A stretch of DNA of 64,000 nucleotides from an uncultured Planctomycetota bacterium (GTDB lineage: Bacteria > Planctomycetota > Planctomycetia > Isosphaerales > Isosphaeraceae), in NCBI GenBank assembly GCA_963845755.1, contig CAWJTV010000011.1, positions 32,001 to 96,000 on the forward strand, given 5' to 3'. Below, one piece after another: positions 28,699-64,000 of this stretch (within the stretch, counting starts at the first letter, position 1; the number at the start of each line of letters is the position of its first letter). A model generated the notes under the pieces. That model was not told where the DNA came from, made no database searches, and worked only from the letters and a program-made list of their open reading frames with translations. A program made the translations under genes and the position numbers.

Positions 28699-28725
28699 CG
28701 GTTCACCTCCAAAGCGGATTCCCTG

Positions 28726-28851: not shown

Positions 28852-29400
28852 TTACCCGCCGCCGAGCGCGTCGGCGAGCCAGGCTCGGGCGAACGCCCAG
28901 TGGCGGTCGGCGGTCCGGCGAGGGAGGCCCAGGGCTTCGGCCGCGTCACCCAGCGTCATCCCGGCGAAGAACCGCACCTTCACCAGTTCGGCGGCTACGG
29001 GGAACTCCTTCGCCAGTCGGTCGAGGGCGTCGTCGAGCTCGAGGAGGTCGTTGTCGGTGGCGACGGCCGGGCCGGTGAGTCGGTCGAGATCGACCGGGTT
29101 TCGTCGGCCACCCCGTTTCAGCCGGGTGCGGTCCCGGGCGTGGTTGACCAGCACACGCCGCATCGCCTCGGCCGCGGCGGCGAAAAAGTGCGACTTGCCG
29201 TCGAAGTGCTGGTCCCCGACCAACCTCAGGTACGCCTCATGGACCAGGGCGGTGGCGTCGAGGGTGTGCCCGGGTCGCTCCGCGGCCATCCGCGCGGCCG
29301 CGAGCCTCCGCAGCTCGTCGTAGACCAGCGGGAGTAATTCGTCCGCCGCACGACGATCGCCGGCTGCGGCGGCCTCGAGGAGGTGGGTGATCTCGGACAT
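28852..29400 (-). CDS. ECF-type sigma factor (kinase-associated)
   Basis: LLPLVYDELRRLAAARM...TLDATALVHEAYLRL...AMRRVLV...WAFARAWL. Confidence 0.93.
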   Translation of the reverse strand: MSEITHLLEAAAAGDRRAADELLPLVYDELRRLAAARMAAERPGHTLDATALVHEAYLRLVGDQHFDGKSHFFAAAAEAMRRVLVNHARDRTRLKRGGRRNPVDLDRLTGPAVATDNDLLELDDALDRLAKEFPVAAELVKVRFFAGMTLGDAAEALGLPRRTADRHWAFARAWLADALGGG

Positions 29401-47515: not shown

Positions 47516-47590
47516 GTCGGCATCCGCTTGCGCTCCTGACACGTGTCTCTTGTCCAACATCCATTTTGCCAGCAGCGGAGGAAGACGACA

Positions 47591-48034
47591 ATGAGGACAG
47601 CCGTGATTCTCGTCGCGGTAGTTGTGGTGTGCTCGCTCTCGACGATCGAGGCCCATGCTCAATCGGGCTATGCGCTCTCGGTGTGGTCACCGACGAACGG
47701 GCAAAACTACGGTAACGGGGCTTGGATGAACGTTAACGGGTCGTTCACGTACCCGTGGCCATGCGTGGGAATTACATGCTCACCCAACGTGTGGCTGACT
47801 TTGACGGGCGGCAATACGATGTGGTACAATGTGGATCTGAATGCAAACGGTATGGTGAGCTACGGCTATGGTTATGGCGGTATCGTGGCGACCTTAACCG
47901 TATATGCGAACATGCCGTGGGGATCCTATGACATGGATATCTGGCTGTCCGACGCGACATCGAACCCACCGGCCGGCAACGGCAACAATGTACTCGGAAG
48001 TCCAGTGTTCTTGACGATATCAGTGGGACCATGA
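47591..48034 (+). CDS. Secreted hypothetical protein (G/N/Y/W-rich)
   Basis: Signal peptide MRTAVILVAVVVVCSLSTIEAHA; RBS GGAGG. Confidence 0.7.
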   Translation: MRTAVILVAVVVVCSLSTIEAHAQSGYALSVWSPTNGQNYGNGAWMNVNGSFTYPWPCVGITCSPNVWLTLTGGNTMWYNVDLNANGMVSYGYGYGGIVATLTVYANMPWGSYDMDIWLSDATSNPPAGNGNNVLGSPVFLTISVGP

Positions 48035-48050
48035 TGGGCCCCCGGGGTGA

Positions 48051-48569
48051 TTGTCATGCCGAGTGGCCCGGTCCGCGGCTGGCCAGCGTCTGTGGCCAGT
48101 CTACGCGCTCGTTTCCACCGCCTCCGCCCTAGTCTGTACAACGATCTACGAGTATGGATCAGTCGGTGCCGCCCTGGCGGCAGTGCGTGGCCGCGCTGTC
48201 CATGTCGAACACACCACCAAGTCGTTCGGTGCGACAAAGGTCGGCTCCAATCGTAAGGTGGAATTTGTGCTGAACAATTTGCTGAATCGCCCCGTCCGAG
48301 TGGTCGCTTCGGAGTCGGCGTGTTCGTGCGCGTCGGTGGTTCGCCTTCCGGTTACTATTCCACCGATGGGTAGCCAGACCGTTATGGTCTCGGTGCAACC
48401 ACAGATCGTTGGTCGCCTCGAACAGACTGTCGGTTTGCAGATAGACGTCCTGGGTCACCCGCTCCTGCAACTCCGTGTGGTTGGTGAGGTGGAAGCGGGA
48501 GAAGAACCTGATCAAAAAAACGGAAGGACGGGAATAGTGAAGACGGAGAACCGCCGCCCCGCTTTTTGA
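48051..48569 (+). CDS. DUF1573-like Ig-fold protein
   Basis: FVLNNLLNRPVRVVASESACSCA...IPPMGS. Confidence 0.7.
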   Translation: MSCRVARSAAGQRLWPVYALVSTASALVCTTIYEYGSVGAALAAVRGRAVHVEHTTKSFGATKVGSNRKVEFVLNNLLNRPVRVVASESACSCASVVRLPVTIPPMGSQTVMVSVQPQIVGRLEQTVGLQIDVLGHPLLQLRVVGEVEAGEEPDQKNGRTGIVKTENRRPAF

Positions 48570-48636: not shown

Positions 48637-51293
48637 TCATGGCACGAACGGCGTGTGCGGCACCCGGGCGTGGCAGGTCGTCCCGGCGTGGAAACGCCTG
48701 GCATGAGGACCGCGACCGTAGAAGATGTGAGGGCGCCGGGGTCCCTCGAGCGCCGGCGCCTTGTGGCCCAAACGCTTCTGGAGCGGTCGCCGGACTCGAT
48801 AGGCGACGGCCGAAGTCAGGATCACTCCGAGAGGGATCGTGAGGTCGGCTTCGATCAGGTGTGATCGGTGTTTTCGACGGCGTGCGGGGACCGGGACTTC
48901 GGACTGGGCGAGGATTTCCGAGGACTCCGGCGTCCTGGGGCTGTGGTCTGCATCGGACACCCCGCCGAGCCAGGAGGAGATGGGCCCGCTCGGGAACCAG
49001 TTGACCAGGGAGAGCAGCCGGTCAACCCGCGCCAGGACCCGCGCATCTTCGCCGGCGCCGACCGTCTCGGGTTTGGCCGTCACAGCCAGGACGGCCGCCT
49101 CTTGCGGGACGGCCGGTTGACCTTCGGCGGAGCCGAGATTTTCGGGCGGATCGCCATTGCCGAGTCGCCACTCGGAGTCCGACGCCGACGTGTAGCGGAT
49201 TCCCGGCATCAACCCGTTCAATCGATCCGCCACGGAAGCCAGCGCCCCCTCGACCGTCGGGCCGACCGCGGCGACCTGCTGGGCATCCGCCCCCGGCAGC
49301 CCCATCAGGCCCGTGTCCATCGAGACCAGCAGCAAGCTGGAGGGGACGGGAGACGCGACGAGTGCTGTCACACTCGATGCCGCGCTGCCGCCGGAAATCA
49401 CCGCATTCGTCACCCCATCGGCTGCTCCCAGGCCCGATGTCGCGGTCGGGTCCGCCGAGAGCGAGCCGACCAGCGACAAGCTCAGCGCGGGTGCCTGGCC
49501 GACGCCGTTCTCGATGATCTTCTCGTAATCGAGTGCCAGCGGCTTGAGGGTCCATTGAACCACGGCGGGTTGAGACCCGACGGCGGTCACCCGCACGTCG
49601 TAGACCCCGGGCTGGAGTGCCATCTCGGAGTGGGTCAGTCCCGACAGGTTGTCCATGGTGAGGGCGGTCGTCCCGCCTGGCCCCGTGACTTCGAGATCGG
49701 CCTCGCCTGCGCCCACGAGGGTCTGGATCCCGTAAGTACCGGGGCAGATCACCACGAAGCGGTAGGCGGTTTCCTGGCCGGCGGCGAGCAGGGTGGTCCG
49801 CGAGATCGACGAGTCCCAGGTCACGTTGATCGGGCCGGGCCAGACGACGCCCAGATTGTCGGGGCGCTCGCTCCGGTGGGTGCGATGGTCCAGGTCGCCA
49901 GGACGCCCGACGGATTGCCCGACGGAGCGACCAGCGGTAGGCCGGAGGAATCGGTCAAGCCGCCTTGGACCGGATCGACCAACCGGTACGTCCCCGCCGG
50001 CAGGGGTTCGTCGAAGATGAACCCAAGTGCGTTCGTGGCGAATTGATCGCTCACGGCCGTGATGGGCCAGACCTGGCCCGAGGCGTTGACCACTTCGAGG
50101 GCGGTCTCTTGCTGGTCGGGAAGGAATAGAGGGGTCGCGTTGACCGGGCCGGAGAAGGTCAGGTCCAGTCCCGTCGGGGACGGTTCGAGGGAATCCGCGT
50201 ACTCCAGGGTGTGGCCCACCAGGGTGGTGGTGCTGACGGCCGGATCGGCGAACAACTGGAGGAGGAACCGGCCGCTGGGGCCTTCGAAACCCGCGATGCC
50301 CGGCGTCCCCGTCACGGGGTTGTAGCCGTTGAGCCATCCGGTCAGGTTCTTGGCGGCGGAGACCCCGACGTAATACGTTCCCGGCGCCAGGCCCTCGATG
50401 AGGAAGGGATCGGAGCGGTTGGTCGCCGAACCCGCGCCGGAGGTGTTTTCGGCCAGCACATCCCCCTTGGCGTCGAAGAGGGTCAGGCCGGCTGTCAAGG
50501 GGCTGCCGATGGCCTGCGACAAGAGCTGCGCATTCAATTGCCAGCGGTTCCCCGACGGCAGCGTGAACTGATAGAGGCTTACCGACGACGACGCGTTCTG
50601 GGGATCGACGAAGCCCGAAACGCTCCGCGTCGTCGGGCCGATGTTCCCCAACTTGATCGCGCCTCCCAGCGTCACTCCGGGGCCCAGGATCGTGAACTGG
50701 GCGATCGGCACCGGCTGGCTCCCCGCCCAGGCCGATGCCGGGTAGAACGAACCGAACACGGAAGCCAGCACAGTCCCCGGCAGGATGTCGAGCTGGTAAG
50801 TCCCCGGCCCCAGCCCCAGGTTCCCTGCCGAAGGCGAGATGCTGACCTGGGCCTGGGAGACGGTCCCATCGGCAGCCGTCTGGATGGTGACGTTCTCCTG
50901 CAGCGGCGACGAGGTGTTGCTGCCCAGCACGGGCGACCCCACGCCGCCGGGGCCGACCTGGTCGAGCTCCACCTCGGCGTTGTCACCCTGGCTGACATTG
51001 TCGAACGCGACGAGTGCGGGAAAGGTCTGACCTGGTTCGGTACCGAGTAAGCCCGAGAAGACATTGTCGATCGTGGTGACGTCACCCGGGTCGAAGGTGA
51101 TCGCCAACTGCTGAGGCGCCTGAAGCAGGACCGTCCCATCGGCCGGCTGAATCGCATCGATCCCGGGTAGGGAGACCGAGAGGAGATGCCGGCTCTCCAG
51201 GAGTTCCAGGGCGGGCCGACGACTCGCTGGCCGCTGGGAGCGGGTTCGGAGATGATACGACTTCCCATCAAGCAGGTTCATCGGGATATCCAC
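48637..51293 (-). CDS. Large secreted LESR-motif protein with PPC-like domains, frameshift near 49830
   Basis: LELLESRHLLS; LTLFDAKGDVLA...DPFL..GLAPGTYYVGVS. Confidence 0.75.
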
Positions 51294-51311
51294 GACTTCG
51301 GTGATGCCCTG

Positions 51312-52832
51312 TCACCGGTGGTGTCTTCGGGGCGTCGAATGCCGCTGGTGGTGGCCGTGCCAATCCTCCAGGACGGCATCCACCGCCTGGAAGACGACCA
51401 CCACGTCCGGCATGCCGGCGGTCGAGCTGGGCTGCTGCCCCGTCTTGGAATTGCTCTGCGGAGTCATCGCGGTCGTCTCCGCGTCCTGCGTCGTGAAGCT
51501 GGGCAAAGCGCCGATTGATCCGCCACCATGGCCGGTGGGCGGGTTCGGCTGCGCAGGTGGCACGGTGGTCTTCCCCGCGACCGCGCCGCTATTCATCTGG
51601 AAAGCCCAGCCCGAGATATTGCCGATCGTGATCCAAATGGGCTGCTGCGGGATGAGGGGAGACTCGCCGGCACCGATGGCGTTCATGCTTGCCTCAATGG
51701 CGTTCTGGGTGGTGCCGCCGCTGTTGTCCGGCTGTTCAGGCACCACCGTGTTCGGCGGCGAGATCGGCGACTGGGACTGCGAGCCGAAATTGACCAGCAA
51801 GCCGTAGGCTCCAACGGTACCCACCGTGCCCGAGCTCGCCGCCGTGACCCTGATGTAATACTTCTGCCCGGCCTGAACGTTAATCGTCGTCGAGGGCGCC
51901 GCCCCGTAGACGCCCGTCGCGTAGACTTGGGAGATCTGGCTCAGCGACGAGTTGTAGACGGTCAGCCCGGGTGCCAGCGAGCTCAGGTTGGACGACTGCG
52001 CGGTGATCGCCATCTTTCCGGTCGTCGAGGAGGGGACTGTGACAACGTACCACTCCGCATCACCGGCGGTGGTATTGTCCAGGGCCGAGAGCGAGATCTG
52101 GGACTGACCGTTGATATAGGACGTGATATTGGTCGCGGTCAGAAACGTGCTGTTCCGCGTGCCGTGGTTATTGAACTGGTCGTACTGGTGCGCGCCATAA
52201 ACGGAATCGATACCGCTAACGTCGTCGCTGCTCAGGGTCTGATTGATCCCCTCGTAGGTGCCGTACATCACGGCCCATTGGACGCTCGAGTCGCCCAGGC
52301 CCAGGGCGTGGCCGAACTCATGCGCCGCCACGGTCATCAGGTCATACGTGTTGTTGATCGCCCAGGTCGCCGTCGAGTTGAACAGGATATCACCGGCAGC
52401 CGTGCCGCCATTGGCCTGCGGGGGCAGGAAGGTTTCGGCGAGGACGCCGGACGGCAACGGGATGGCGCCGATGCGGATGTCGCCGAACCGCGGGTCGTCT
52501 TGCTGATCGCCGCTGATGCCGTCCGCTTCTCCGCCATCCGGAACCAGGGACAGGTTGACATTGGCAGCCGTCTCCCAGATCGACGCCGCCTGTTCGATCT
52601 GAGTTTGCCAGGTCGCCGTGGAAGCCACCTTGTTGAGGGTCTGGAACAGAACGCTGGGCGTTCCGCCCACGCTGGTCCCATCGGGCATGAAGCTGTAGGT
52701 GATCCGGCTGTCGTAGGTCCACATGTCGCCGAGGGTCGAGTAGAGCAGCAGCCGACTCTCCAGATGTTCCGGGGCAGGGCGGGCGTTGCGAGACGGTGTC
52801 CACCGAGCGGAGGTGCGTCGAAGTCCCAGCAT
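51312..52832 (-). CDS. Matrixin-family (M10-like) metalloprotease, secreted
   Basis: LESRLLL; GDIRIG, AGDILFN, AAHEFGHALGLGDS, Met-turn AVMY. Confidence 0.9.
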   Translation of the reverse strand: MLGLRRTSARWTPSRNARPAPEHLESRLLLYSTLGDMWTYDSRITYSFMPDGTSVGGTPSVLFQTLNKVASTATWQTQIEQAASIWETAANVNLSLVPDGGEADGISGDQQDDPRFGDIRIGAIPLPSGVLAETFLPPQANGGTAAGDILFNSTATWAINNTYDLMTVAAHEFGHALGLGDSSVQWAVMYGTYEGINQTLSSDDVSGIDSVYGAHQYDQFNNHGTRNSTFLTATNITSYINGQSQISLSALDNTTAGDAEWYVVTVPSSTTGKMAITAQSSNLSSLAPGLTVYNSSLSQISQVYATGVYGAAPSTTINVQAGQKYYIRVTAASSGTVGTVGAYGLLVNFGSQSQSPISPPNTVVPEQPDNSGGTTQNAIEASMNAIGAGESPLIPQQPIWITIGNISGWAFQMNSGAVAGKTTVPPAQPNPPTGHGGGSIGALPSFTTQDAETTAMTPQSNSKTGQQPSSTAGMPDVVVVFQAVDAVLEDWHGHHQRHSTPRRHHR

Positions 52833-53212
52833 CGTAATACTCCGTTGCAAATCAGGGAGATTTCGCAGGGGATAGACTCAGACGGCGGAGGATCGATTTC
52901 GTCGCGCGGCTGAAGGCCAACGCCTCATCCGGCTAGGGAAGCTCAGGATCATCGCGGCTTCGTGATCCTCCACCGAACACAGTAGACGCACCTCCACTGC
53001 AACACTAGGTCAGGTTGGGAGATGCTGCCAAGAAAAGACGTGTTAGCCCGGTGGTCAGGCAAATTTGAGGGAGGGGCGTTGCGATCGAGCCACAAGTGCT
53101 GCCAAAAAAGGACATGAAATCGGTCGAACCTGGAGCTTCATCGGCTCAGAAAAGCCACTTCCGTCGCCCGGCGAGATCCGCGGCCGCGGAGCCGGTCGGA
53201 CCCGATGGGCCG

Positions 53213-53995
53213 TCAAACCGCGGCGCGGGTCGCCCGCTTCCGCCGCCAGATCATGGCGGCAGCCGCCAGGCCCCAGAAGGTCCAGGTCGTGGGCTCCGGG
53301 GTCGCCATCGGAACAACCATCTGCGGCGCCGACTGGATGATCTGATCGAAGCCGCTCGGAAGAATCGCCGCGCGCAGGGCGGCGGCGGCGGCCGGGCTGA
53401 ACGTCGAGTTCGGGCTGATCATCATGGCCCAGTTGGCCCTCGTCGAATCGATATAGTTGCCGGACTGGTCGTAATTCTCCCCGACGCCGAAGGCGAGCAT
53501 CAACTCGTGGGCGATATTGTGCGCGACAAGCCATTCGAGCTGATCGACCGATTGGGCCGATTGGGCCATCGGATCGATGAAGCTGAACCCGTTGCCGCCG
53601 ATGGCGGTTGTCCCAATAGCGCCGGGAAAGGCCAGGCTCGAGGTGTTCGAGACCTCGCTGAGCACATGGGCGGTTGGGATGCCGGGATTGTCTGTCAGAG
53701 CGACTGCAATTCCGCTGAGGCTGAAGGTCTGCTCGACACGCTGGAGGACCGTGCCGTCGAAACTCTGCTGTTGCTGCGCGGTGGGAGGGCCGCCGAAGAG
53801 GCCGGCGACGGCTGTGCTGTCGAACCAGGGCTGTGCGTTACCGGTTGTGATCTGGCTCTGGTCGGGATACGGGCTGGATCCCAGGTTGATGAAGGCGTCA
53901 ACGGGGGCGGACGAAATGAGCGGATCGGCGCCGGCCGTTCGCACCGCGGCGATCGACAGGATGATACCCAGAACGAGGATCCTCCAACCAGCCAT
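53213..53995 (-). CDS. PEP-CTERM sorting-signal protein
   Basis: Signal peptide; C-terminal TPEPTTWTFWGLAAAAMIWRRKR. Confidence 0.85.
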   Translation of the reverse strand: MAGWRILVLGIILSIAAVRTAGADPLISSAPVDAFINLGSSPYPDQSQITTGNAQPWFDSTAVAGLFGGPPTAQQQQSFDGTVLQRVEQTFSLSGIAVALTDNPGIPTAHVLSEVSNTSSLAFPGAIGTTAIGGNGFSFIDPMAQSAQSVDQLEWLVAHNIAHELMLAFGVGENYDQSGNYIDSTRANWAMMISPNSTFSPAAAAALRAAILPSGFDQIIQSAPQMVVPMATPEPTTWTFWGLAAAAMIWRRKRATRAAV

Positions 53996-54566
53996 CGCGA
54001 ACCTCCTGTTCGAACCCCTGGGGACTGCCGTTATAACGATCCTGCCGCATTCCCTCTTTGGATGGGACGCCAAGGTTTTCGACCGGCGCGGAGACTATGT
54101 AGCCAGCGGCCGGCTTCCGCTCGGGTCGAATCCCACTGATCTGAAGGGAAGGGAAGAGCCGACGAAATCGAAGGGATGCCTCCCCAGTTAGCAAACTTCA
54201 TGCCGAGATCAAGTCCTCACCGAATGACCGATGCTTCAGCGGGAGAAGATTGTCGAAACTACCGATTCGGCCGGCTGTTCGGTTTTTTCGCCCGGGAACC
54301 TCGGGGTGCCGCCCCGGACCGGTCCGGGGCGCGCGAATGTTCCACAACCTGGTGCTTTTTACAAACCCTTGGATATCTTGGGAGAGAACGAGCAGACTCA
54401 CGTCCACGGCGTGGGGGGCCGGTACCGATCAGCCTGCCACCGGACAAAAGCGATCTCCGGCGGAACTTTTTCCCCGGCAGCGGCACCTTGAGAGAGGATC
54501 GGTGTTGGTCCATGCCACTTCCTCGACGATTCTGGTACGGGGTTCTGGGAAGTTGGAAGTTGGGTC

Positions 54567-54596
54567 TTGATCATCGTCGGATCCGTCGATTATAGT
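54567..54596 (+). promoter_or_regulatory. Putative sigma-70 promoter TTGATC-N18-TATAGT
   Basis: Near-consensus hexamers about 45 nt upstream of ATG 54640. Confidence 0.5.
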
Positions 54597-54639
54597 GATC
54601 CCTGTATTTGTGACGGTCGTTGATTGGACCAAGGTTGGG

Positions 54640-55002
54640 ATGACCATGCCGCGGTTCGTTCGACAATTCCTGTTCGCCTCACTGGTCGCTTGGCACGCCG
54701 CGGTCATGCTCTGCGGCCCATACCTGCACGAGCTGGCCGGTTCCGGGCACGGCAACGGCGCGGTCTCGTCGAAGGAACAGCGTCCCGACGGCCCCGCGCA
54801 ATCCAACCGCGACGTCACGGACGGCTGCCTCATCTGCCATTTCGTCGCGCAGGGGCAATTGCCGGTCACCTTCTCCGACGGCCCGTCGATCCAGCAGATC
54901 GACGCCCTGACAGTCCCCCCACTCCCAGTCGCACGACCCCTCTCGAACCGGCTCCCAGCCGGCCCTCGCGCTCCGCCAGGGGCGGCCTCCAACCTGTCCT
55001 GA
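54640..55002 (+). CDS. DUF2946-like leader protein with CxxC and RAPP motifs
   Basis: Hydrophobic N-terminus, CLICH (54826-54840), Pro-rich tail GPRAPP (54961-54978). Confidence 0.8.
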   Translation: MTMPRFVRQFLFASLVAWHAAVMLCGPYLHELAGSGHGNGAVSSKEQRPDGPAQSNRDVTDGCLICHFVAQGQLPVTFSDGPSIQQIDALTVPPLPVARPLSNRLPAGPRAPPGAASNLS

Positions 55003-55392
55003 CCGGCGTGAGAGCGCGGTCCTTACAGACCGGCCGCCGGCTGGCGTGCGCCACCCTACCTACCGCGAGCTCCCCGATCGAGCCCCGGCATGGGGCCGCG
55101 CACTCGCCCCGACCGATCGCCTCCGGCGCAACGGCGCCGCGGACCGACCGGCCCGCCGATCCCTGGTCAACGGATCGTTAACGCACGGTCCGGTCGCCGA
55201 TCCGGCCCGGCTGATCCCGGCCGGATCGGCTGCACGTGCAATCACCCCTGCGCGTGAGTCGACACGATCCCACCAAGACGGAGCGGCAGCTCGTGGCCCC
55301 GCGCGGTCCGCGACCGTTGATAACGGCCATATCCGGCAAAAATTGACATTGGAATTTGTCCTGATCCGATTCTCATCTCCGAGGAGTTCCCT

Positions 55393-56497
55393 ATGCGTAA
55401 TGATCGTTCGCGGACCGCAAGACCAGGCTTCACGCTCATCGAGCTCCTGGTCGTGATCGCAATCATCGCGGTCCTGATTGCCCTGCTCCTGCCCGCGGTT
55501 CAGGCCGCTCGCGAAGCCGCTCGCCGGGCCCAGTGCGTCAACAACCTGAAGCAGATCGGCCTGGCGCTGCACAACTATCACGACGCCATCAGCACCTTTC
55601 CTTCCGGCTACATCGATTACCAAAACAACTCCATCTATACTCCCGACCTGGACATGGGACCGGGCTGGGGCTGGGCGGCCCTCGCGCTGCCGTTCCTGGA
55701 ACAGCAGCCCCTGTACAACGCGATCAATTTCAACCTGGGCATACGAAGCGCAAGCAACAGCACGGCCGTGCTGACGCCGTTGACCGTCTTCCAGTGTCCT
55801 ACGGATGGTTACAACCCGCAGCCCTGCATCCTCTACGACAGCACGTTCAGCAACCCCATCATCACGGTGGCGCACTCCAACTACGTCGCTGGCAGCGGCT
55901 GGGAGGAATGCTTTGTGAACGCCACCGGGAACCCCACACCATTCTACCTCAACACCAGCGACCCCAACGATCAAGACGGAGACCCCACGGACGGCATCCC
56001 TGGCAATGGCATTACCTGTGGGTATGGCGCGGCCGGCATCGGCATGTTTTCGCGCAGACAGTAACACGCGCAACGCCTCCGTCATTGACGGACTGAGCAA
56101 CACAATCGCCGTCGGCGAGCGCTGCACCGCCCACTCCCCAACCACCTGGGTCGGCGCCGTGACGGGAGCAAGATGCCCCGCGTGGATGGCTACCATCGGC
56201 TGGACAACCCCCAATACTCCTCCCTCCCAGTGCCAGAATACCGGAAATGGCACCGCCTACGACAATGCGGACTTCGACGAAGCCTTGTGCCTCGGCCATG
56301 GCAACGCCACGCACAAGCCCAACAGCGACAACCCGGTCTTCGACCCCGATACGTTTTGGGCCATGCACCCCGGTGGATGCAATTTCCTGTTCGGCGACGG
56401 CTCGGTGCATTTCCTCAAGGTCAGCATGAACCCGGGCGCGTATCAATACCTGATGACCAGAGCCGGCGGCGAGATCATCTCGGGAGATTCCTATTGA
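55393..56497 (+). CDS. DUF1559 prepilin-type protein, frameshift near 56055
   Basis: [59 protein letters not shown]. Confidence 0.95.
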
Positions 56498-56581
56498 TGG
56501 CCGCGGTCCGCGCGCCTCAAACCGGTGGGCGCTGGCCATTCGCCTGGTTCTTCGCCCCGATTCCGAGGGAGGACTTGACTT

Positions 56582-57019
56582 ATGCGCGTGCAGACAGGTC
56601 TGGTTCTGTTGCTTGGCTTGCTGGCGTGCGCCGGCTGCAACAATGGGAAATCGACCGACGAGTTGATCGCGGATCTGAAGTCGGGCACAGAGATAGAGGG
56701 CGTTAAAGCGGCGCGCACCTTGCCGCGGGGAAGGGGCGATGCGGAAAAGGTCGTTCCGGCGTTGATCGAAGGCCTCACGCATAGGGCCAACGATGTCCGC
56801 CGCAGCTCCGCCCTCAAACTTGGCGAGTTTCACGAACTCGCCAAGGATGCCATCCCCGCGCTCCAGAAGGCGGAGCAGGACGACGCTGACGCCAGGGTCC
56901 GCGAAGCAGCCGGCATCGCCTTGTCGCGCATCGATCCGGAACGATTTCCCTACAAGCTCAAGGTCGGACTTCCCAACACGTCCAAGGGACGGCCGGCGGG
57001 AGCTTCGAGAAGACGCTGA
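56582..57019 (+). CDS. HEAT-repeat lipoprotein
   Basis: Lipobox LLACAGC; VVPALIEGL, AIPALQKA, VREAAGIAL. Confidence 0.82.
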   Translation: MRVQTGLVLLLGLLACAGCNNGKSTDELIADLKSGTEIEGVKAARTLPRGRGDAEKVVPALIEGLTHRANDVRRSSALKLGEFHELAKDAIPALQKAEQDDADARVREAAGIALSRIDPERFPYKLKVGLPNTSKGRPAGASRRR

Positions 57020-57309
57020 TTCGAAGGCCGTCGGTGCCGGCGCGCAGCCTCATCCTGACCACGGGACTGGAAGCTTTTCTCGTATGTGAAACGTGCTCGC
57101 TGATCTTTCAGTTGGCGGGCATGGCTTGTCGGTTGGAGACGGTGCTCTGCCGTGTTTTCTGGCGGATCCCCGGCTGAGCCGGCCATCCTGGGCCGGATCC
57201 CTTGTGTTGTGAACGTCGAACCCCGGGCCGGGACGCGTTCGCGGTGCGGACATCCCGCGCGCGCGCTCGGCCCTCATCTACCACAGCCCATTACTACGGA
57301 GACGCAACG

Positions 57310-57771
57310 ATGAACCGTCGCGAGATTCTCGGTGTCGCTGGGGCCAGCTTAGCGGGAGTCGCGCTCGGGGCGACCGAGTCCCGAGCCCAGCATCCCCACC
57401 ATCACGACAAGCTGCATGGCGATTGCCTCAAGGCCTGCGAGGCGTGCGCCACCGTCTGCAACGAGACGTTCCATCACTGCTTCGAGAAGGTCAAGGATGG
57501 TCACGGTGACCATCACGTCGTCACCATCCTGACCATCGACTGCCAGGAGTTCTGCGGCCTGGCGTCGGAGCTCATCGCCCGGGAAAGTCCGATGGTCTCG
57601 GTCATCTGCGCGGCCTGTGCCGACGCTTGCAAGATGTGCGCGGCGGAGTGTTCCAAGCACGATGACCCGCAGATGAAGGAGTGCACCGCCGCCTGCAAGG
57701 CCTGTGAGACCGCGTGTCGCGCCATGGCCAAGGCGGCCGGCGAAGCCAAACCCGAAGTCTTAGACCGCTAA
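57310..57771 (+). CDS. Tat-exported Cys-rich four-helix-bundle copper-storage-like protein (Csp1 type)
   Basis: MNRREIL twin-arginine signal; 16 Cys in CxxxC/CxxC spacing; HPHHH. Confidence 0.88.
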   Translation: MNRREILGVAGASLAGVALGATESRAQHPHHHDKLHGDCLKACEACATVCNETFHHCFEKVKDGHGDHHVVTILTIDCQEFCGLASELIARESPMVSVICAACADACKMCAAECSKHDDPQMKECTAACKACETACRAMAKAAGEAKPEVLDR

Positions 57772-57834
57772 ACCGGAGGGTGCGTGCGTACCGGATTCGT
57801 GTCATGATTCCTTGATTCGTGGTGGCCTTTTGCG

Positions 57835-59128
57835 ATGAACCCGCTTGCCTGGCTGACGAACCGGGGGGACGTCCTCACGCGGGACGTCCTTCCGGCCCTG
57901 GCGCCGTATATTCGCTGGCTGAGAACCCCGCTCGGCTCGCTCACCCTGGCGGCACTCGCCGCGGGCCTATGCGGGATGTTTCTGCACCCGCAAGGGTTCG
58001 TGGTGTTCTTCGGTGTCCTGGCGGTGATGACCCTGGGCCTGGCCTGGCCCTGGCTGGGCGTCCGCGGGCTGGAGGGCTTGCTGAGCTTCGACCGCCTCCG
58101 CTGCCGCGAGGGGGAATCGGTCCAGGCGAAACTGACCCTCCGCAACCGGATGTTCTGGAGTGCCTGTGGGATCGCGATCAAGGGAGGGTTCCACGCGCCA
58201 TCGGGTGAGCGTGGCGATGAGACCGCGCTGGTTGGCCTGGCGTCGGTGCCTCCCCGGCGCACAATCGTGAAAATGTTCGAGTTCGTCCCTCAAATCCGCG
58301 GCGAGTATCCCATCCGCCGGCCTCGGGTGGTCTGCGGCTTCCCGTTCGGCCTGAGGGAGGCATCGCGGCCGCTGGATGTCGCCGAGTCGCTGCTGGTCTG
58401 GCCCCGGACTTTCCCCGTCCCGATGATGCCCGAGACCGCCGGCGCCCGGGCGTCCGACGGCCTGGCCACCCGCGACCGCGCGGGCCAGTGGGGCGATCCG
58501 CTGGGCGTCCGGCCTTACCGCCGCGGCGATCCGCTCCGTCGCGTCCACTGGGTCCTGACCGCGCGGCACGGAGAGTTGATCGTCCGCGAGCTCCAATCGA
58601 ACGCCGTCCCTCGCGTCCAGATCGTGCTCGATGCCCACCCGGCCGCGCACCGCGGGTCGGGGCCGGACAGCTCGCGCGAGTGGGGCATCCGCATCGCCGC
58701 GAGCCTGGCCGAGGGTTGGATCCGCGAAGGAGCCGACGTCGAGATGGTCGTCGACCGGGGCCTGGTCCCGGCATGCGGCGGTTCGAAGCGGGCCCGCTCG
58801 GCGACCTTGCTCGACGCCCTGGCGCGATTGGCCCCGGCGTGTGACCGAACCCTCGAGGAATTGCTCCGCCTCCCCGAATGCCGTGGCGACGGCGGATTGC
58901 GGGTCATCGTCACGACGGACATCGCGGCTGCGCGACGACAGTGGACAAGAAGCCCGGCGACGGCCCAGAGATGCCTGGGTCGTGCTCCAGGCCGCGGCGT
59001 TCGGATCCGACGAGACCTCCGCTCCGACTGAACCCTTGCCGGTGGCTCCCTGGATCCGGATCGGTGGCCCGGAGCACGTGGCGGCATGTCTCCACCGGCC
59101 GGGAAAGGAGATTCTGCTTGGTGCCTGA
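57835..59128 (+). CDS. DUF58 protein, frameshift near 58935
   Basis: FPFGL, LLVWP, GVRPYRRGDPLRRVHW..TARHGELIVRE. Confidence 0.9.
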
Positions 59129-61473
59129 TCGTCGTGAAGAGGTGCGGGTCTGCTGGACGACCCAGGCCATGGCGGGACTCGCCGCCATTGCGCTGGACCA
59201 AGCCGTGCTGGAGCCGGGCCGGTCGCGTGCCGTCGCCTTGACGTGGACGGTCGCCGCGCTCGTCGCGCCGATGCTGGCCGCGGGCTGGTGGCTGGGAAGG
59301 GCTCGGAGGACCCGGTCGGGCTCCTTCCCGATCGTCGCCCTCCTGATCGTGTTCGCTCTCCCATTCGTCGGCGAGGCGGTTCGGTTCGCCGTCAGCGGCC
59401 GCGGGGCGATGGCGGAGGTCCTCTTGATGGCCGCCTTGCGAAACCTGGGGCTCGGCCTGGCCGCGATGGCCCACCGGCTGTTCTATGCGCGACTGTCGGC
59501 CGTCGTCAGCCTGTTCCTGGTGACTGTGGCCTCGTCGGTCGGCGGCGACGCCGGACTGGCCGTCCTGGGGCCGATCGGCGGATTCGCCATGGTGGGGACG
59601 CTCTGGTTGATGCTCGTCTACTGGAACGGCCTGGCCCTGGAGTCGGGCGCGGGACCAGCGTCGCGGCGGCTCCCGCTGTCGGGCGCGGCCTGGGTGCTGG
59701 GGATCCTTGGGATGCTCGCCGCGGTCGCGGCGGTCGGGCCTTCGCGCGCGGCCACCGCGCTGGCGGGCCTGCTGCCCACCTCGGGCGGCACGGACTGGAG
59801 CGACCCCGATGCCCGATCGGGGGTCGGCGACGGCGACCACGAGGTCAGCGCCAGCGAGCACCCCGAATCGGTCGGGTTCACCGAAAGCGAGGTCTACCTG
59901 GAAACCGACCGGCCCAGCCTCTACGACGCGTTCAACGAGACGTACGGCGAGCCGTTCAAGCCCAAGAAGCAAGAGAAGATGATCGCCCTGGGACAGCAGG
60001 ACATCGGCCCGCAGGAGGAGCGACCGGCCGAGAACCTCCAGGCCGGTCGCGAGTTCGCCGCAGTGCGGCGGAAACCCCAACCGCATCCCCGACGGCCCGG
60101 TGAGCGGGCGGCCAAGGCGTTGGTTTACGTCAAGGGCCCGACTCCGCTGCACCTGCCCTTGACGTCGTACAGCCACTTCGACGGCACGGCCTGGCACGAG
60201 GAGCCCTGCTGCAACCGGCATCTCCCCGTCGAGCCGGAACCCCACGGTTCGTGGTTGAGACTGCCGTGGTCGGAGGCGCCATTCCTGGCCGGGATCGTCG
60301 CTCACCAGGTCAAGATCGGAACGCTCGAATCGAGCCCGATGCCGGTACCGCCGCACCTGACCCGGTTTCGTGTCGGCAGTGTCAACCGGCTCGACTTCTT
60401 CGGCTGGGCCCAGTTCGGAATCATCCGGATGACCGACCGGACCGTGCCGGCGGGGACCGTGATCGACTCCGAAGCGCGGACGGTCGACCCCCAGGAGCTG
60501 AAGTCGATCCCGTTCCGGCCGCGGCTGGACAATGAGGACGACCACAACCTCTCGTTCCAGGGAGATTATCGGATCGACCCGTCGGTGGCCGCGCTGGCGA
60601 GGAGTTGGGTTGTGGACCGACCCGAAGGCTGGTCACAGATTGAGGTCGTCATCGCCGCGCTTCGGAGTGGCTACGGTCACGATCGTTCGGCCACGGCTCC
60701 GTCCGGCTGCACCGACGTCGTCGCCGAGTTCTTGCTGCGCTCCCATCGCGGCCCCGATTACCTGTTCGCCTCGGCGGCGGCCGTGATCCTGCGGTCGCTG
60801 GGTTACCCGACGCGGGTCGTCAGTGGTTTATATGCGGCGCCGGGACGATATGACCCCCGTACGCGCCACACACCGGTGACCCGCGACGACGTCCACTTCT
60901 GGGCCGAGATCCGGCTGTGGAACGGCATCTGGGTCGCCATCGAGCCCACCCCTGGCTACGAGCTGTTGCGCCCGGTTCGCCCCTGGTCCGAGCAGATTGT
61001 CCAGGCGGCTCTGGGCCGCCGGGAGATGGGCACAAGGTCACGCCGCCGGCCTTCTGGCCGCGGTAGTCGGCTTCGGGGCGCTTGTGATCCGGCGACACGA
61101 CGTGCTCGATCGGCTCGCAACCCTCGGGCTGGCCCTGCGCATGGGACACGACCCGAGGCGGTACGTGATGTATGCGTTGAAGTTGATCGAGCGACGGTCG
61201 CGGCGGGCCGGCCGCGCGCGACCGCCGGGACTCACCCTCGGCCGCTGGTATTTCCCCCTCGCGTGGGAAGCGACGGGAGAGGACCGAACCGCGCTGGAAG
61301 GGCTCGTCCGGCTGGCCGACTGGGCGACCCACGCTCCCGACCGCTCAGGCCTGCCCGCACCCGCAAGCGCGCACGACATCCAGCAAACCTGCCGGTCCGC
61401 AGTGCGGGTGTGGACACAGGCTCGCTTCCGCCATGCCATGACTTCCCGGCTCGGAAAGGCGGCCATCTCATGA
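59121..61473 (+). CDS. Membrane transglutaminase-like protein, frameshift near 61020
   Basis: Multiple TM helices; GPDYLFASAAAVILRSLGYPTRVVSG, HFWAEI, WVAIEPTPG. Confidence 0.85.
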
Positions 61474-62447
61474 GGACGATGACGACCATGACGGTCCTGA
61501 TGAACGAGACCCATGCTGACCCGATCGAGAGGATCCGCGCCGCGCTCAACGGTGCACTGCGCGGCAAGGCCGATGTGGTAGAGCATGTGCTCGCCTGCCT
61601 GCTGGCGCGGGGGCACTTGCTCGTCGAGGATCTGCCGGGCCTGGGCAAGACGACGCTGGCCAAGGCCCTCGCGCTGGCGCTGGGCGGCAAGTTTGCGCGG
61701 GTCCAATGTACCCCGGACCTCCTGCCCGGCGACATCACCGGGTTCCGCGTGTTCGACCAGCACACCCGCGAGTTCGAATTCCTGCCGGGTCCGGTCTTCG
61801 CCGACGTGCTCCTGGCCGACGAGATCAATCGCGCGACCCCGCGCACCCAGAGTGCCCTCCTCGAAGCCATGGCCGAGCGACAGGTCACCGTGGACAACGT
61901 CAGGCACGTGCTGTCGGACACGTTCTTCGTGATCGCTACCCAGAATCCGGTCGAGCAGCATGGGACATACCCGTTGCCCGAGGCCCAGCTCGACCGATTC
62001 GCCGTGAAGCTGCGGATCGGCTACCCGGGACGCGATCACGAGCTGGCCATGCTGGAAGCGGCGGTTGGCCGAGGGATAGACGGAGACCGGTCCGTGGCTC
62101 CCGTGATGGACCCGGGCCAACTCCGAGCGCTTCAGGAACGTGTGGCGGAGATCGCCGTCGGCGCGGCGGTTCGCGAGTACATCGTCGCTCTGGCCCATGC
62201 TACCCGGACGCATCGGCAGGTCACCCTCGGACTGAGCCCGCGCGGATTGTTGATCTGGCAGCGACTGGCGCAGGCCCGCGCGTTCCTCGACAGCCGGAGC
62301 TACGTGACACCGGACGACGTCCAGGACGTCGCCGAACCCGTGCTGGGGGTCCGCCTCGGCGTCGAGCCCGACGCGATCGCTCGGATCCACTCCGAGATCA
62401 CGGCGTCTGTTCCGGTCCCCGTTTATGTCAAGACTGGTCCCGAGTGA
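61470..62447 (+). CDS. MoxR family AAA+ ATPase
   Basis: HLLVEDLPGLGKT, TPDLLPGDITG, LADEINRATPRTQSALLEAM, YPLPEAQLDRF. Confidence 0.95.
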   Translation: MRTMTTMTVLMNETHADPIERIRAALNGALRGKADVVEHVLACLLARGHLLVEDLPGLGKTTLAKALALALGGKFARVQCTPDLLPGDITGFRVFDQHTREFEFLPGPVFADVLLADEINRATPRTQSALLEAMAERQVTVDNVRHVLSDTFFVIATQNPVEQHGTYPLPEAQLDRFAVKLRIGYPGRDHELAMLEAAVGRGIDGDRSVAPVMDPGQLRALQERVAEIAVGAAVREYIVALAHATRTHRQVTLGLSPRGLLIWQRLAQARAFLDSRSYVTPDDVQDVAEPVLGVRLGVEPDAIARIHSEITASVPVPVYVKTGPE

Positions 62448-62495
62448 GGCGGCTCTCGTGTGGCCCAACCCCTGAACTCAGAAAAAGGGCATTGC

Positions 62496-63002
62496 ATGAA
62501 GACATCATCCTGGTTATCCACGCCCGCGTATCGGGCGACTCTCGCGGCCGCCTGCCTGCTCGCACTTGCGGGTTGTCGAGGCGAGTCGTCCCCCGGCGAT
62601 GACGAAGACCACGTCGGCCACGTCATCCCCGCGCACAAGCCGAGGACGTTTCCGGAGGCCGTCCATCGCCTGCGTGAGCTGAACGATCAGATCGGCCGCG
62701 AGATCGGCGGAGGAGCATCTGCGGCGGCGTCCGGGGATAAGACCCTACACATCGCGCTGGACATCGCCAACTGGCTCCCCGAGATCGCCGCGGATTGTGA
62801 CATGCCCGAGACCCCCTGGAACGTGGTGAACACTCGGTCGGAGGTGCTGGCCGCGGACTACCAGGCCATCCTTTCCAACCCGGCGACGGCCGGCGCGGCC
62901 AACGAGTTGAAAAACACGGGAAAGGCGATCGCCGACCTCGAGGCCCTGCTGGCCGCCGCCGACCTCCGTTGGTTTGCCGGAACTCATCAGAAGCGAGGGT
63001 AA
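62496..63002 (+). CDS. Lipoprotein with His/acidic motif
   Basis: Lipobox LAGC; DDEDHVGHVIPAHKP; WLPEIAADCDMPE. Confidence 0.75.
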   Translation: MKTSSWLSTPAYRATLAAACLLALAGCRGESSPGDDEDHVGHVIPAHKPRTFPEAVHRLRELNDQIGREIGGGASAAASGDKTLHIALDIANWLPEIAADCDMPETPWNVVNTRSEVLAADYQAILSNPATAGAANELKNTGKAIADLEALLAAADLRWFAGTHQKRG

Positions 63003-63006
63003 CGTC

Positions 63007-64000
63007 ATGTTCGAGACCATCTTCTGGGGCGCGGTGCTCCGCGTTTCCCAGGCATTCATGCAGGCAGCTCCGACGATCCTGGTGGGGATCGTCGTGGCGG
63101 CGATCTTCCGGCGGCTGCTCGGGCACGGGGGGACCCGACGGCTCTTCGGCACCGGGACCCGGCGCGAGCTGCCGCAGGCGTGGCTCGTCGGGATGTTGAT
63201 GCCGATCTGCTCGCTGGGTGTAATCCCGGTCGCCCAGGAGATGCGGCGGGCGCGGGTCTCCGGGGGTGCGATCCTGGCATTCGCCATGACCGCTCCGCTG
63301 TTCAACCCGTTATCGATGCTCTACGGCCTCACGCTCTCGGCGCCGTGGGTCATCCTGTCGTTCGCATTCTGCACGATGCTGGTGGTGACGGCTGTGGGCG
63401 CGGCGTGGAACGGGCTCTTCCCGATGGCCGCATCGGAGGAACCGGCCCCGTCGCCGGTCGCCTATGGCGTGAAGCGAATGATCGCGATCGTCGTGGCCGC
63501 TGCGCGCGCGATCGTCGGCCCGTTTCTGGTTTACGCGGTGCTGGCTCTGCTGGGCGTGGCACTACTCGCCGCCTTGGTGCCGCACGGCAGCCTCATGACG
63601 ACCATGGAGCACAGCAACCCTTACGCCCCGCTGGCGATGACTGCGGTGGCGATCCCCGCGTATGCCACGCCATTGATGGCCATGTCGCAGCTCGGCTCGA
63701 TGTTCCAGCACGCCAACTCGGTCGGGGCGGCGTTTGTCCTATTGACCCTGGGCGCGGGAATCAATCTCGGGTTCATCGCCTGGGTCGGGCGGACCTACGG
63801 ACTGAAGCGCGGCCTGGCCTGGCTGGCTATCCTGGTGGCCGTGGTGCTCTCCCTGGCCTACGCGATCGAGAAGCCGCTCTATCCCAGCGAGATCCAGCCG
63901 GCCGGCCATACCCACGCCTTCGACATCTATTGTTGCCCGTTCGTTTCCGGTACGAGCCATTTGCCGGGGACCGTCCTGGCGAAACTCAAGGAAGACCTCC
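63007..64000 (+). CDS. DUF318/ArsP-type permease (partial, runs off the window)
   Basis: MFETIFWG...MLMPICSLGVIPV...AILAFAMTAPLFNP; later HTHAFDIYCCP; absent from the ORF track. Confidence 0.82.
   Translation, partial: MFETIFWGAVLRVSQAFMQAAPTILVGIVVAAIFRRLLGHGGTRRLFGTGTRRELPQAWLVGMLMPICSLGVIPVAQEMRRARVSGGAILAFAMTAPLFNPLSMLYGLTLSAPWVILSFAFCTMLVVTAVGAAWNGLFPMAASEEPAPSPVAYGVKRMIAIVVAAARAIVGPFLVYAVLALLGVALLAALVPHGSLMTTMEHSNPYAPLAMTAVAIPAYATPLMAMSQLGSMFQHANSVGAAFVLLTLGAGINLGFIAWVGRTYGLKRGLAWLAILVAVVLSLAYAIEKPLYPSEIQPAGHTHAFDIYCCPFVSGTSHLPGTVLAKLKEDL

What the first reader, a model, noticed from the sequence alone, without database searches (positions are those of the whole stretch)
54567..64000. 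Candidate copper/metal-responsive operon: CxxC-RAPP leader -> DUF1559 pilin-like -> HEAT lipoprotein -> Tat Csp -> DUF58/transglutaminase/MoxR -> His lipoprotein -> permease
Seen: nine co-oriented genes, several with metal-ligand signatures (CLICH; 16-Cys bundle; DHVGH..PAHK; PICS and HTHAFDIYCCP in the permease). Known: DUF2946 leaders (CruR, CutF) precede copper-related genes, Csp proteins store Cu(I), DUF318 permeases occur in metal loci, and MoxR AAA+ ATPases act as chaperones, often for metal insertion. Inference: one metal-handling system that uses a planctomycete DUF1559 prepilin-like protein where proteobacteria have a TonB-dependent transporter or multicopper oxidase. That would give a function to one member of this large orphan family. 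I know of no description of this combination.
Basis: partly seen in the sequence, partly recalled or inferred. Interest (0 to 1): 0.85.

Follow-up and report, generated by a model that had tools for sequence, protein, structure and literature searches.

The report
Metal-sensing leader operon of planctomycetes
A small metal-sensing, ribosome-stalling leader gene heads a conserved planctomycete operon (a pilin-like protein of a huge unexplained family, a chaperone trio, a lipoprotein and a membrane transporter) that most likely switches on when the cell runs short of a metal, zinc more probably than copper, which gives several orphan protein families a testable job.

Summary
The nine co-oriented genes are real; three frame breaks match this assembly's error rate, and the unit runs past the window (513-aa permease, one more lipoprotein). 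It joins two modules that relatives often keep apart, each behind a CruR/CutF-type leader (CxxC, 43 residues, RAPP; spacing 42-46 in 94 of 96). Leader to DUF1559: of 72 testable best matches to this DUF1559 subfamily 63 have an intact leader upstream, against 0 of 62 paralogues in this genome. Leader to DUF58, Cys-less transglutaminase, MoxR, His-lipoprotein, DUF318 permease: order kept in 25 of 29 loci; a model docks lipoprotein on permease (0.65, controls 0.01). Across the class the co-cargo points to zinc starvation (ZigA, ZepA/All3515, a Zur-like palindrome). Copper rests on the Csp, a local add-on, and this genome lacks those zinc markers, so the metal here is open. DUF1559 folds as a pilin: it stands in the TonB receptor's gene slot but is no transporter. 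A RAPP-DUF1559 link is already tabulated, uninterpreted, in EMBO J 2025 source data, and this scan noted both modules before on other DNA. New variant of a known kind; nothing is shown experimentally.

The parts
53213..53995 (-). Divergent PEP-CTERM surface protein with H-x3-HE-x-x-L motif; probably travels with the system
   Evidence: PF07589 weak; single copy in genome; homologues beside leader-headed units in 7 other places (L019 twice, L024, L028, L033, L168, L184), two of which keep HExxH
54462..54486 (+). ECF-sigma-type promoter (GGAACT...CGGCA), left without its cognate sigma gene in this genome
   Evidence: Motif present before 9 of 9 leaders whose first gene is this ECF and 5 of 85 others, 0.4% in shuffles (pattern drawn by eye from these loci); also in L014, L019 twice, L026, L028; best genome hit 33-39% against 54-61% for orthologues
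54567..54596 (+). sigma70-like promoter TTGATC-18-TATAGT
   Evidence: Only hit in 54100-64000, but 0.7 expected by chance; TTGAC-type -35 boxes are visible before many related leaders
54640..55002 (+). CruR/CutF-type leader peptide, 120 aa: hydrophobic N-terminus, CG-x-x-LH...H, CxxC (aa 63-66), RAPP (aa 110-113), 43 residues apart
55003..55392 (+). 390-nt C-rich intergenic region; candidate site of Rho-dependent termination
   Evidence: C over G skew +0.13 to +0.17 here; mean +0.12 around 94 leader stops against +0.01 downstream, weaker (+0.05) for the intergenic part alone; Rho is encoded; no ECF remnant
55393..56497 (+). DUF1559 prepilin-like protein of a leader-linked subfamily; frame break near 56057
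   Evidence: PF07596, PF07963, TIGR04294; tree; pilin fold of the intact 86%-identical orthologue
56582..57019 (+). HEAT-repeat lipoprotein, partner gene of this DUF1559 clade
   Evidence: PF13646; follows the same DUF1559 type in L019, L024, L027, L028, L035, L074, L075, L181
57310..57771 (+). Tat-exported copper storage protein (Csp1-like), 16 Cys
   Evidence: E 1e-12 to Csp3 5fig and 1e-4 to Csp1 5fjd; TIGR04401 47 bits, cut-off 100
57835..59128 (+). DUF58 membrane-anchored protein without DxSxS; frame break near 58940
   Evidence: PF01882; DxSxS in 1 of 43 orthologues
59169..61473 (+). Membrane transglutaminase-like protein with catalytic Cys replaced by Asp; frame break near 60990
   Evidence: PF01841; GPDYLFA against GFCAHYA in 6g49; G[PA]DY in 36 of 43 orthologues, 4 close variants with D or E, 3 not matched
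61470..62447 (+). MoxR AAA+ ATPase
   Evidence: PF07726, PF17863; 61-87% identical to the cassette orthologues
62496..63002 (+). His lipoprotein (H-x4-H-K-P, WLPE-x-A, W); predicted partner of the permease
   Evidence: conservation in 34 sequences; no Pfam family; complex model
63007..64000 (+). DUF318/ArsP-type permease extended by a C-terminal four-helix bundle; continues to G000:C11:96548 (513 aa)
   Evidence: PF03773 43 bits over cut-off 32.3; C68, H303, D306 at least 95% conserved in 43 loci; model pLDDT 85

Best explanation
A metal-limitation operon of the cell envelope, gated after transcription starts. Inferred mechanism: the ribosome making the exported leader stalls at RAPP; with the CxxC held 43 residues away, just outside the exit tunnel, metal binding (Cys2 plus the conserved N-terminal His) releases the stall, bares C-rich RNA and lets Rho stop transcription in the 390-nt gap, as in CruR. 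When the metal is scarce the stall holds and the genes are made. The cargo then captures and imports metal: a dedicated DUF1559 pilin subunit with its lipoprotein at the surface or in the periplasm, and a His lipoprotein docked on the periplasmic four-helix bundle of a DUF318 permease that moves the ion inward. MoxR with DUF58 and the Cys-less transglutaminase-fold membrane protein acts as an ATP-driven assembly or remodelling machine for this apparatus, not as an enzyme of cross-linking. The ancestral signal is most likely zinc; in this branch a Csp was added as a periplasmic copper sink or store. Shown by computation: gene content, leader constraint, synteny, leader-DUF1559 specificity, loss of the catalytic Cys, pilin fold. 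Inferred: stalling, Rho termination, direction of regulation and transport, the metal, the role of MoxR.
For: Leader: spacing 43 in 73 and 42-46 in all 94 of 96 profile hits with the motif; RAPP 70, RGPP 23, RSPP 1; CruR spacing is 45 and conserved within 1-2 residues (PMC9426467). Median gap to first gene 310 nt, too long for CutF-type hairpin opening; Rho present. Zinc co-cargo in 94 leader-headed runs: ZigA 5, All3515/ZepA family 4 (246 bits, cut-off 75; ZepA is Zur-repressed and mediates zinc uptake, PMC10957091), choice-of-anchor M 6, DUF3526 ABC-2 permease 3, weak AztD-like 4; Csp 1 called, 2 more found later. ZigA-family genes beside the cassette in 5 of 29 permease loci (534-648 bits, two over the cut-off of 600) and in the same run in 3 of 14 further loci, Csp in 0 of those 14. 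TGCAA-N5-TTGCA within 400 nt of 12 of 94 leaders (shuffles mean 0.75, max 3), 9 of the 12 heading the cassette; just upstream of the run in 4 of the 14 further loci and in L032, L036; its arms match the predicted Desulfovibrio Zur box ATGCAACnnnGTTGCAT (PMC545781). Fur-family genes adjoin the cassette in L008, L034, L251. Lipoprotein-permease model: score 0.65, best of 3 controls 0.01; the mark was reached by 116 of 157 solved and 2 of 215 mismatched pairs; runs agree in at least 54% of contacts, partner pLDDT at least 73; the interface uses the conserved P95, E96, W108; no like solved complex is known to me and neither chain had a clear structural match.
Against: This genome shows none of the zinc markers: no ZigA, All3515, choice-of-anchor M, DUF3526 or cassette-type Fur by tblastn, and no palindrome within 2 mismatches at 53990-55400; all 12 palindrome-bearing leaders lie in other families. 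The only metal-specific gene in this operon is a copper storage protein, and its three closest orthologues (68-73%) are also in leader-headed or leader-remnant units. Characterised DUF318 relatives are described as efflux (NF033936 Cu/Zn efflux, 50 bits of cut-off 300; Shew_3410 needed under zinc stress). L011 lies divergent from a CusA/CzcA pump. The permease does not replace ZnuABC: within the family it is in 9 of 11 ZnuA-positive and 8 of 38 ZnuA-negative genomes. Only 2 of the 14 further cassette loci had a leader by pattern. The H-x-[DE]-[DE] motif of 23 of 59 leader-linked DUF1559 (1 of 61 paralogues) is absent from the window's copy. The palindrome was picked by eye from the same 94 loci, and kin are not independent.
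Confidence: 0.5

Rival explanations
1. Copper-responsive operon: in this branch the leader reads copper (repressing like CruR to supply cuproenzymes, or inducing like CutF), Csp stores Cu(I) in the periplasm and the permease moves copper.
For: Both characterised leaders of this kind sense copper. Csp sits in the unit in the window and 7 related loci (one truncated) and its closest orthologues are leader-linked; Csp is also divergent from this DUF1559 subfamily in L235 and L236. A P1B ATPase scoring best as copper-type precedes a subfamily member in L198. Zinc markers are missing from this genome.
Against: No PCuAC, Sco, CopC, multicopper oxidase or CusF hit turned up among the neighbour proteins that I scanned (a selection of cluster representatives and singletons, not all genes). 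Csp is in 0 of 14 further cassette loci and 26 of 29 other Csp loci show neither leader nor cassette genes within 1.5 kb. The L198 ATPase lies downstream of a ZigA gene cluster (L238).
Confidence: 0.25
2. Metal-excess operon: the leader stalls more when metal is bound and the permease, lipoprotein and Csp export or sequester Zn/Cu.
For: Nearest named permease families are efflux systems; DUF2946 genes head czc-type efflux operons, such as Caulobacter CC2720; Csp can act as a sink.
Against: ZigA, ZepA and a repressor-type palindrome near promoters are marks of shortage; similarity to the efflux models covers under 120 residues and is far below their cut-offs.
Confidence: 0.12
3. In this genome the locus is a decaying mosaic: three genes are true pseudogenes, the ECF sigma is lost, and the gene string is no longer one working unit.
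For: Three frame breaks; orphan ECF promoter; relatives show remnants (truncated Csp in L028, IS-broken ECF in L026, DUF58 stubs in L089, L091, L207); 290-nt gap before Csp.
Against: Break rate equals the genome background (8 of 24 genes); identity to intact orthologues stays at 57-87% on both sides of each break; the same order is intact or nearly so in L024, L027, L028, L035.
Confidence: 0.06
4. The leader monitors export or pilus/envelope assembly (SecM-like) or thiol redox state, and the cargo is an envelope-building kit with metals only incidental.
For: RAPP/RGPP peptides also head sec, Dsb and sigma-factor genes (PMC12992588); here leaders head pilins, Flp/Tad operons (4 of 96) and an ECF sigma (9 of 96).
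Against: Invariant CxxC at a fixed distance plus His, His-rich insertions, and repeated metal-specific cargo.
Confidence: 0.07

Closest known systems
CruR (Bp2923)-bfrG-bp2921 of Bordetella pertussis, DUF2946/PF11162 (PMC9426467)
   Same: First gene of an operon; export signal; CxxC and C-terminal RAPP at fixed spacing (43 here, 45 there); long intergenic gap; C-rich RNA.
   Different: Extra conserved N-terminal His and often Cys; scores just under the Pfam cut-off; cargo is DUF1559, a MoxR cassette and an ECF sigma, not a TonB receptor and PepSY; co-cargo suggests zinc. The paper notes only that a few homologues occur in Planctomycetes.
CutF-CutO-CutG of Rhodobacter capsulatus (PMC9973294; bioRxiv 2025.02.05.636593)
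   Same: Exported Cys leader with C-terminal Pro motif controlling metal genes in cis.
   Different: CutF has CxxxC and a short gap with an SD-hiding hairpin and is induced by copper; here CxxC and gaps of about 190-480 nt.
RAPP/RGPP upstream ORF survey (Fujiwara/Chiba group attribution recalled; PMC12992588)
   Same: Source data of Fig. 4B list DUF1559 as a downstream gene of RAPP ORFs (112 RAPP against 68 AAPP, 6.5-fold, adjusted p 1e-31).
   Different: Main text has no mention of DUF1559, prepilin, pilin or DUF58; no subfamily, metal or cassette analysis seen.
MoxR-DUF58-transglutaminase cassettes (P. aeruginosa TgpA operon, recalled; Bifidobacterium PFNA, search listing only)
   Same: Same three families in one operon.
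   Different: Order DUF58-TGase-MoxR; catalytic Cys replaced by Asp; DxSxS lost; fixed link to a permease, a His lipoprotein and metal regulation.
DUF318/ArsP permeases (SO_0444, SaoE, Shew_3410)
   Same: PF03773 over cut-off; PxCS motif.
   Different: 513 aa with an H-x-H-x-x-D-x-x-C loop and a C-terminal four-helix bundle predicted to hold a lipoprotein; far below the SO_0444 and SaoE cut-offs.
Copper storage proteins Csp1/Csp3
   Same: Cys-lined four-helix bundle; twin-arginine-like signal as in Csp1.
   Different: Below the TIGR04401 cut-off; placed in a leader-controlled operon.

Membership tests
DUF2946 / CruR-type leader | PF11162 over gathering score | tested here: not met
   22.3 bits, cut-off 23.7, E 2.4e-4, full-length match
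DUF2946 / CruR-type leader | CxxC and C-terminal RAPP at conserved spacing | tested here: met
   43 residues; 42-46 in 94 of 96 homologues
DUF2946 / CruR-type leader | First gene of an operon, long gap to next gene, N-terminal export segment | tested here: met
   390-nt gap; median 310; hydrophobic N-terminus seen in alignment, no signal-peptide predictor run
DUF2946 / CruR-type leader | Metal-dependent stalling and control of downstream genes | not testable with these tools
   needs reporter and toeprint assays
DUF2946 / CruR-type leader | Downstream genes linked to copper | tested here: inconclusive
   Csp here; zinc markers dominate class-wide
DUF1559 (PF07596) prepilin-like | N-methyl motif, PF07596, H-X9-DG C-terminus | tested here: met
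   (two pieces across the frame break); intact in L028
TonB-dependent receptor or multicopper oxidase (role proposed for DUF1559) | Beta-barrel or cupredoxin fold | tested here: inconclusive
   Nine best VIA rows are pilins (Z 3.2-4.3, rmsd 3.2-4.8, 85-128 aligned), all weak; model pLDDT 73.5; unlisted folds are not excluded by this search, but the prepilin N-terminus argues for a pilin
Copper storage protein (Csp) | Cys-lined four-helix bundle homologous to solved Csps | tested here: met
   E 1.3e-12 to 5fig; 16 Cys
Copper storage protein (Csp) | TIGR04401 cut-off | tested here: not met
   47.3 bits against 100
Active transglutaminase-like enzyme (TgpA type) | Cys-His-Asp triad | tested here: not met
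   Asp at the Cys position, His kept, Glu at the Asp position; which residue is catalytic in 6g49 is recalled
vWA partner of MoxR | MIDAS DxSxS | tested here: not met
   pattern found in 1 of 43 DUF58 orthologues
MoxR AAA+ ATPase | PF07726 and lid PF17863 over cut-off | tested here: met
   203.6 and 66 bits
SO_0444 / SaoE efflux permeases | NCBIfam cut-off over the whole protein | tested here: not met
   49.7 of 300 and 42.6 of 325 bits
Zur regulon | Zur-type operator at the promoter and a cognate regulator | tested here: inconclusive
   palindrome and Fur-family neighbours in other families; no palindrome at this promoter; the genome's two Fur-family genes are not of the cassette type

The most novel reading that the evidence does not exclude
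Planctomycetes scavenge metal with their pilin-like fibres: under zinc (or copper) shortage a stalling leader, in some lineages amplified by a leader-gated, anti-sigma-free ECF loop, puts a dedicated DUF1559 subunit into a type IV/type II fibre as a metal-catching head, and a new two-part importer (His lipoprotein on an extended DUF318 permease), assembled by MoxR, DUF58 and a pseudo-transglutaminase, takes the ion in. The hundred DUF1559 paralogues per genome would then be exchangeable substrate-binding pilins, each tied to its own regulon.
Probability: 0.15. Interest if true: 0.9.

Novelty: new variant of a known kind. Interest (0 to 1): 0.62.

Why it matters
DUF1559 is one of the most expanded families of planctomycetes (41 or more genes per genome, PMC8567305) with no known function; here one subfamily is tied to a defined regulatory input, so one condition (metal chelation) and one gene can be tested in cultured, tractable species. 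The same leader also gives the first regulatory handle on a MoxR-DUF58-transglutaminase cassette and points to a possible new metal transporter with a lipoprotein partner, present in 82 of 201 genomes of the class. If the metal is zinc, it extends the CruR/CutF mechanism beyond copper; 38 of 49 genomes of this family gave no ZnuA match, so how they take up zinc is itself open. A leader gating an autoregulated ECF sigma with no anti-sigma gene beside it would be an unusual way to switch a sigma factor.

Tried and rejected
Permease as a replacement for ZnuABC: no anticorrelation. One conserved metal motif for all leader-linked DUF1559: rejected; H-x-[DE]-[DE]-[FY] is in 23 of 59 and not in the window copy, and the tree needs at least 5 label changes, so several clades were recruited (quick mode, frameshifted paralogues left out: 62 intact kept, 35 not). 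ECF gene remnant in the leader gap: none. Zur-type palindrome or zinc genes in this genome: 5 exact palindromes, none beside recognisable zinc genes. Intrinsic terminators in the operon: 4 found, 5.3 expected. Fold searches: Foldseek gave no match at E 0.001 for DUF1559 or the permease; VIA matches of the permease are to generic four-helix bundles (PsbQ Z 14.5, rmsd 2.5, 110 aligned) and show no function; the membrane part was barely tested. Atlas searches of both lipoproteins gave only unnamed planctomycete clusters. Expression: no RNA holder listed. Genes whose N-terminus holds GC-rich shadow ORFs in the gaps were disregarded on codon score. Literature searches found no paper describing the cassette or the leader-DUF1559 unit; subscription journals are mostly not covered, the CutF File S1 table was not among the 3 held supplements, and file 10 and the cut end of file 8 of PMC12992588 were not searched, so DUF58 may be listed there.

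Full report
Setting and observation. The window is G000:C11:32001-96000 of a 14.3-Mb, 88%-complete assembly; the closest permease relatives (70-79%) are records titled Isosphaeraceae or Planctomycetota. All nine genes are present and co-oriented, with gaps of 390, 84, 290, 63, 40, -4, 48 and 4 nt, and a tenth gene follows the 513-aa permease outside the window. DUF1559, DUF58 and the transglutaminase-like gene each switch frame once. Elsewhere in this genome 8 of 24 long genes with close orthologues are also split, so 2-3 breaks are expected here; related contigs lack the extra base at 56057. I read the breaks as assembly errors, shown only indirectly.

The leader. It matches PF11162 over its length but just under the cut-off. 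A profile of 16 such leaders found matches in 62 of 201 genomes of the class (only 23 candidates per genome were scored, so this undercounts). Of 103 listed places I fetched 96; the other 7 were already held or were tandem second copies. In 94 of 96 a CxxC precedes R[AGS]PP by 42-46 residues, 43 in 73. CruR has 45, conserved within one or two residues, and works by copper-relieved stalling and Rho termination (PMC9426467, passages and section 10); its stall at RAPP was later shown in vitro (PMC12992588, passages). H30 is invariant in the 16-row alignment. The genome holds a single leader of this profile and encodes Rho.

What the leader heads. First co-oriented gene in the 96 loci: DUF1559 43, DUF58 20, ECF sigma 9, Flp pilin 4, All3515 family 3, others 17. 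DUF1559 makes up under 1% of this genome's genes (97 prepilin starts, about 13,000 genes). In a tree of 59 leader-linked DUF1559, 62 intact paralogues and the window copy, 41 leader-linked rows and the window copy fall in one 47-row group (support 88) with 5 paralogues; other clades are leader-linked too. Reverse test: I took the 82 best matches (251 bits or more) of a subfamily profile. 35 lay behind leaders already found; of the other 47 I fetched 40. In all, 63 have an intact leader within 3.5 kb, 1 a frame-broken one, 8 none, 3 had no upstream sequence, 7 were not fetched; at 320 bits or more, 34 of 34 testable. 19 of the 63 were used to build the profile; 28 were leaders that the leader search had missed. 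Control: 0 of 62 paralogues in this genome. The model of the intact orthologue (pLDDT 73.5) matches pilins best, weakly.

The cassette. DUF58, transglutaminase-like, MoxR, (His lipoprotein), permease keep their order in 25 of 29 distinct loci (1 cut by a contig end, 3 partial) and in 9 of 14 further loci picked from the class search. The permease occurs in 82 of 201 genomes. The transglutaminase-like protein has Asp in place of the Cys of 6g49, conserved family-wide, and DUF58 lacks DxSxS: a pseudo-enzyme scaffold is more likely than cross-linking. The permease keeps C68, H303 and D306 and ends in a four-helix bundle. A complex model places the His lipoprotein on that bundle (residues 463-509) through its conserved P95, E96 and W108: score 0.65, best control 0.01; 116 of 157 solved and 2 of 215 mismatched pairs reach the mark; contact agreement at least 54%, partner pLDDT at least 73. 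This supports binding and does not show it.

A fusion. The full order leader, DUF1559, HEAT, Csp, cassette is found in L024, L027, L028 (ECF inserted, Csp cut short) and L035; L033 has two DUF1559 and no HEAT; L019 splits it into leader-Csp-cassette and a second leader-ECF-DUF1559-HEAT; L026 has leader, broken ECF, Csp, cassette. All seven are close relatives. Elsewhere the two modules are mostly separate.

Which metal. For zinc shortage: in 94 leader-headed runs ZigA 5, All3515/ZepA 4, choice-of-anchor M 6, DUF3526 3, weak AztD-like 4. ZepA is Zur-repressed and mediates zinc uptake (PMC10957091, abstract and passages); Caulobacter znuGHI is a Zur-repressed ABC-2 system (PMC4176598, passages; that it carries DUF3526, and the zinc link of choice-of-anchor M, are recalled). 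ZigA-family genes flank the cassette in 5 of 29 and 3 of 14 loci, with or without a leader. TGCAA-N5-TTGCA lies before 12 of 94 leaders (shuffles 0.75; pattern chosen by eye from these loci) and before the run in 4 of the 14 further loci and in L032 and L036; it resembles the predicted Desulfovibrio Zur box (PMC545781, passages). For copper: the Csp is genuine, its three closest orthologues in the class search are leader-linked, and Csp faces this DUF1559 subfamily in two more genomes. Against applying zinc to this genome: it shows no ZigA, ZepA, DUF3526, ZnuA or operator at this promoter. For efflux: DUF318 relatives help under zinc stress (bioRxiv 072470, passages). I put shortage with zinc as ancestral signal at 0.5, copper at 0.25, excess at 0.12.

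A second input. Nine leaders head a 154-234-aa ECF sigma with no anti-sigma gene called beside it; all nine carry GGAAC[TC]-N12-16-SGGCR upstream, against 5 of 85 others. The window has this promoter and a sigma70-like one but no orthologue of the sigma was found in the assembly. This suggests a positive loop gated by the leader, lost or unassembled here. RAPP peptides upstream of ECF genes are known in Streptomyces.

What is known. CruR and CutF define the kind (also PMC9973294, passages and section 11; bioRxiv 2025.02.05.636593, passages). DUF1559 appears as an enriched downstream gene in the source data of PMC12992588 but not in its main text. DUF1559 papers give localisation and stress expression only (PMC8567305, PMC2754498, passages). 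Ten searches found no description of the cassette or the subfamily. Earlier notes of this scan reached similar readings on other genomes (e1-7688416, e1-4557067, e1-5334388); I saw them after forming mine, and they are not independent support.

Verdict. Real, conserved, not described as a system in the papers I could search; a new variant of a known regulatory kind with uncharacterised cargo. Added here: the subfamily-level reverse test, the fusion of the two modules, the ECF loop and the lipoprotein-permease model. The metal in this genome and every mechanistic step remain untested. Interest 0.62.

Noticed in passing
L099, L146, L152, L155, L015: The same leader family heads Flp/Tad pilus operons (Flp pilin, A24 peptidase, TadE), a second link between this leader and pilus genes.
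   Followed up: partly
L088, L096, L101, L106, L107, L109, L115, L117, L122, L014, L019, L026, L028: Short ECF sigma directly behind the leader with its own predicted promoter before the leader and no anti-sigma gene called: a candidate leader-gated positive feedback loop.
   Followed up: partly
class search: Only 11 of 49 genomes of the window's family gave a ZnuA/TroA-family match, against 147 of 151 in the other families; the route of zinc and manganese uptake in these genomes is unexplained.
   Followed up: partly
window 57092-57123 (approximate): 13-pair hairpin in the HEAT-Csp gap; the first 150 nt of the gap are 86% identical in L181. L024 and L028 hold the 3' end of a second DUF1559 gene at this place.
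   Followed up: no
L012, L013, L015, L119, L135, L137, L141 and G000:C28:97800-105000: A band-7 (HflK/HflC-like) gene trio with a P1B-type ATPase follows the permease in several genomes; in this genome a similar ATPase and band-7 gene lie near a DUF1559 on another contig, without leader or palindrome.
   Followed up: partly
L101, L106, L107, L115, L117, L185-L189, L192: Recurrent unit: leader, (ECF), DUF1559, small lipoprotein, choice-of-anchor M PEP-CTERM protein, often a second DUF1559 of the H-x-E-D subfamily.
   Followed up: partly
window 46640-48569: Another prepilin-like gene followed by a secreted protein and a DUF1573/Ig-like gene; no leader.
   Followed up: no
window 48637-52850: Minus-strand pair of a matrixin (M10) metallopeptidase with PPC domain and a PPC/Ig-like surface protein (weak CopC-domain hit), the second split by a frame break near 49820.
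   Followed up: no
window 15459-21073 and 24037-29400: Two ECF sigma / kinase / TPR-CHAT or WD40 gene strings, judged from translations only.
   Followed up: no
G000:C34:408079-408507 (L237): Second, more distant Csp paralogue (47%) without leader or cassette.
   Followed up: partly
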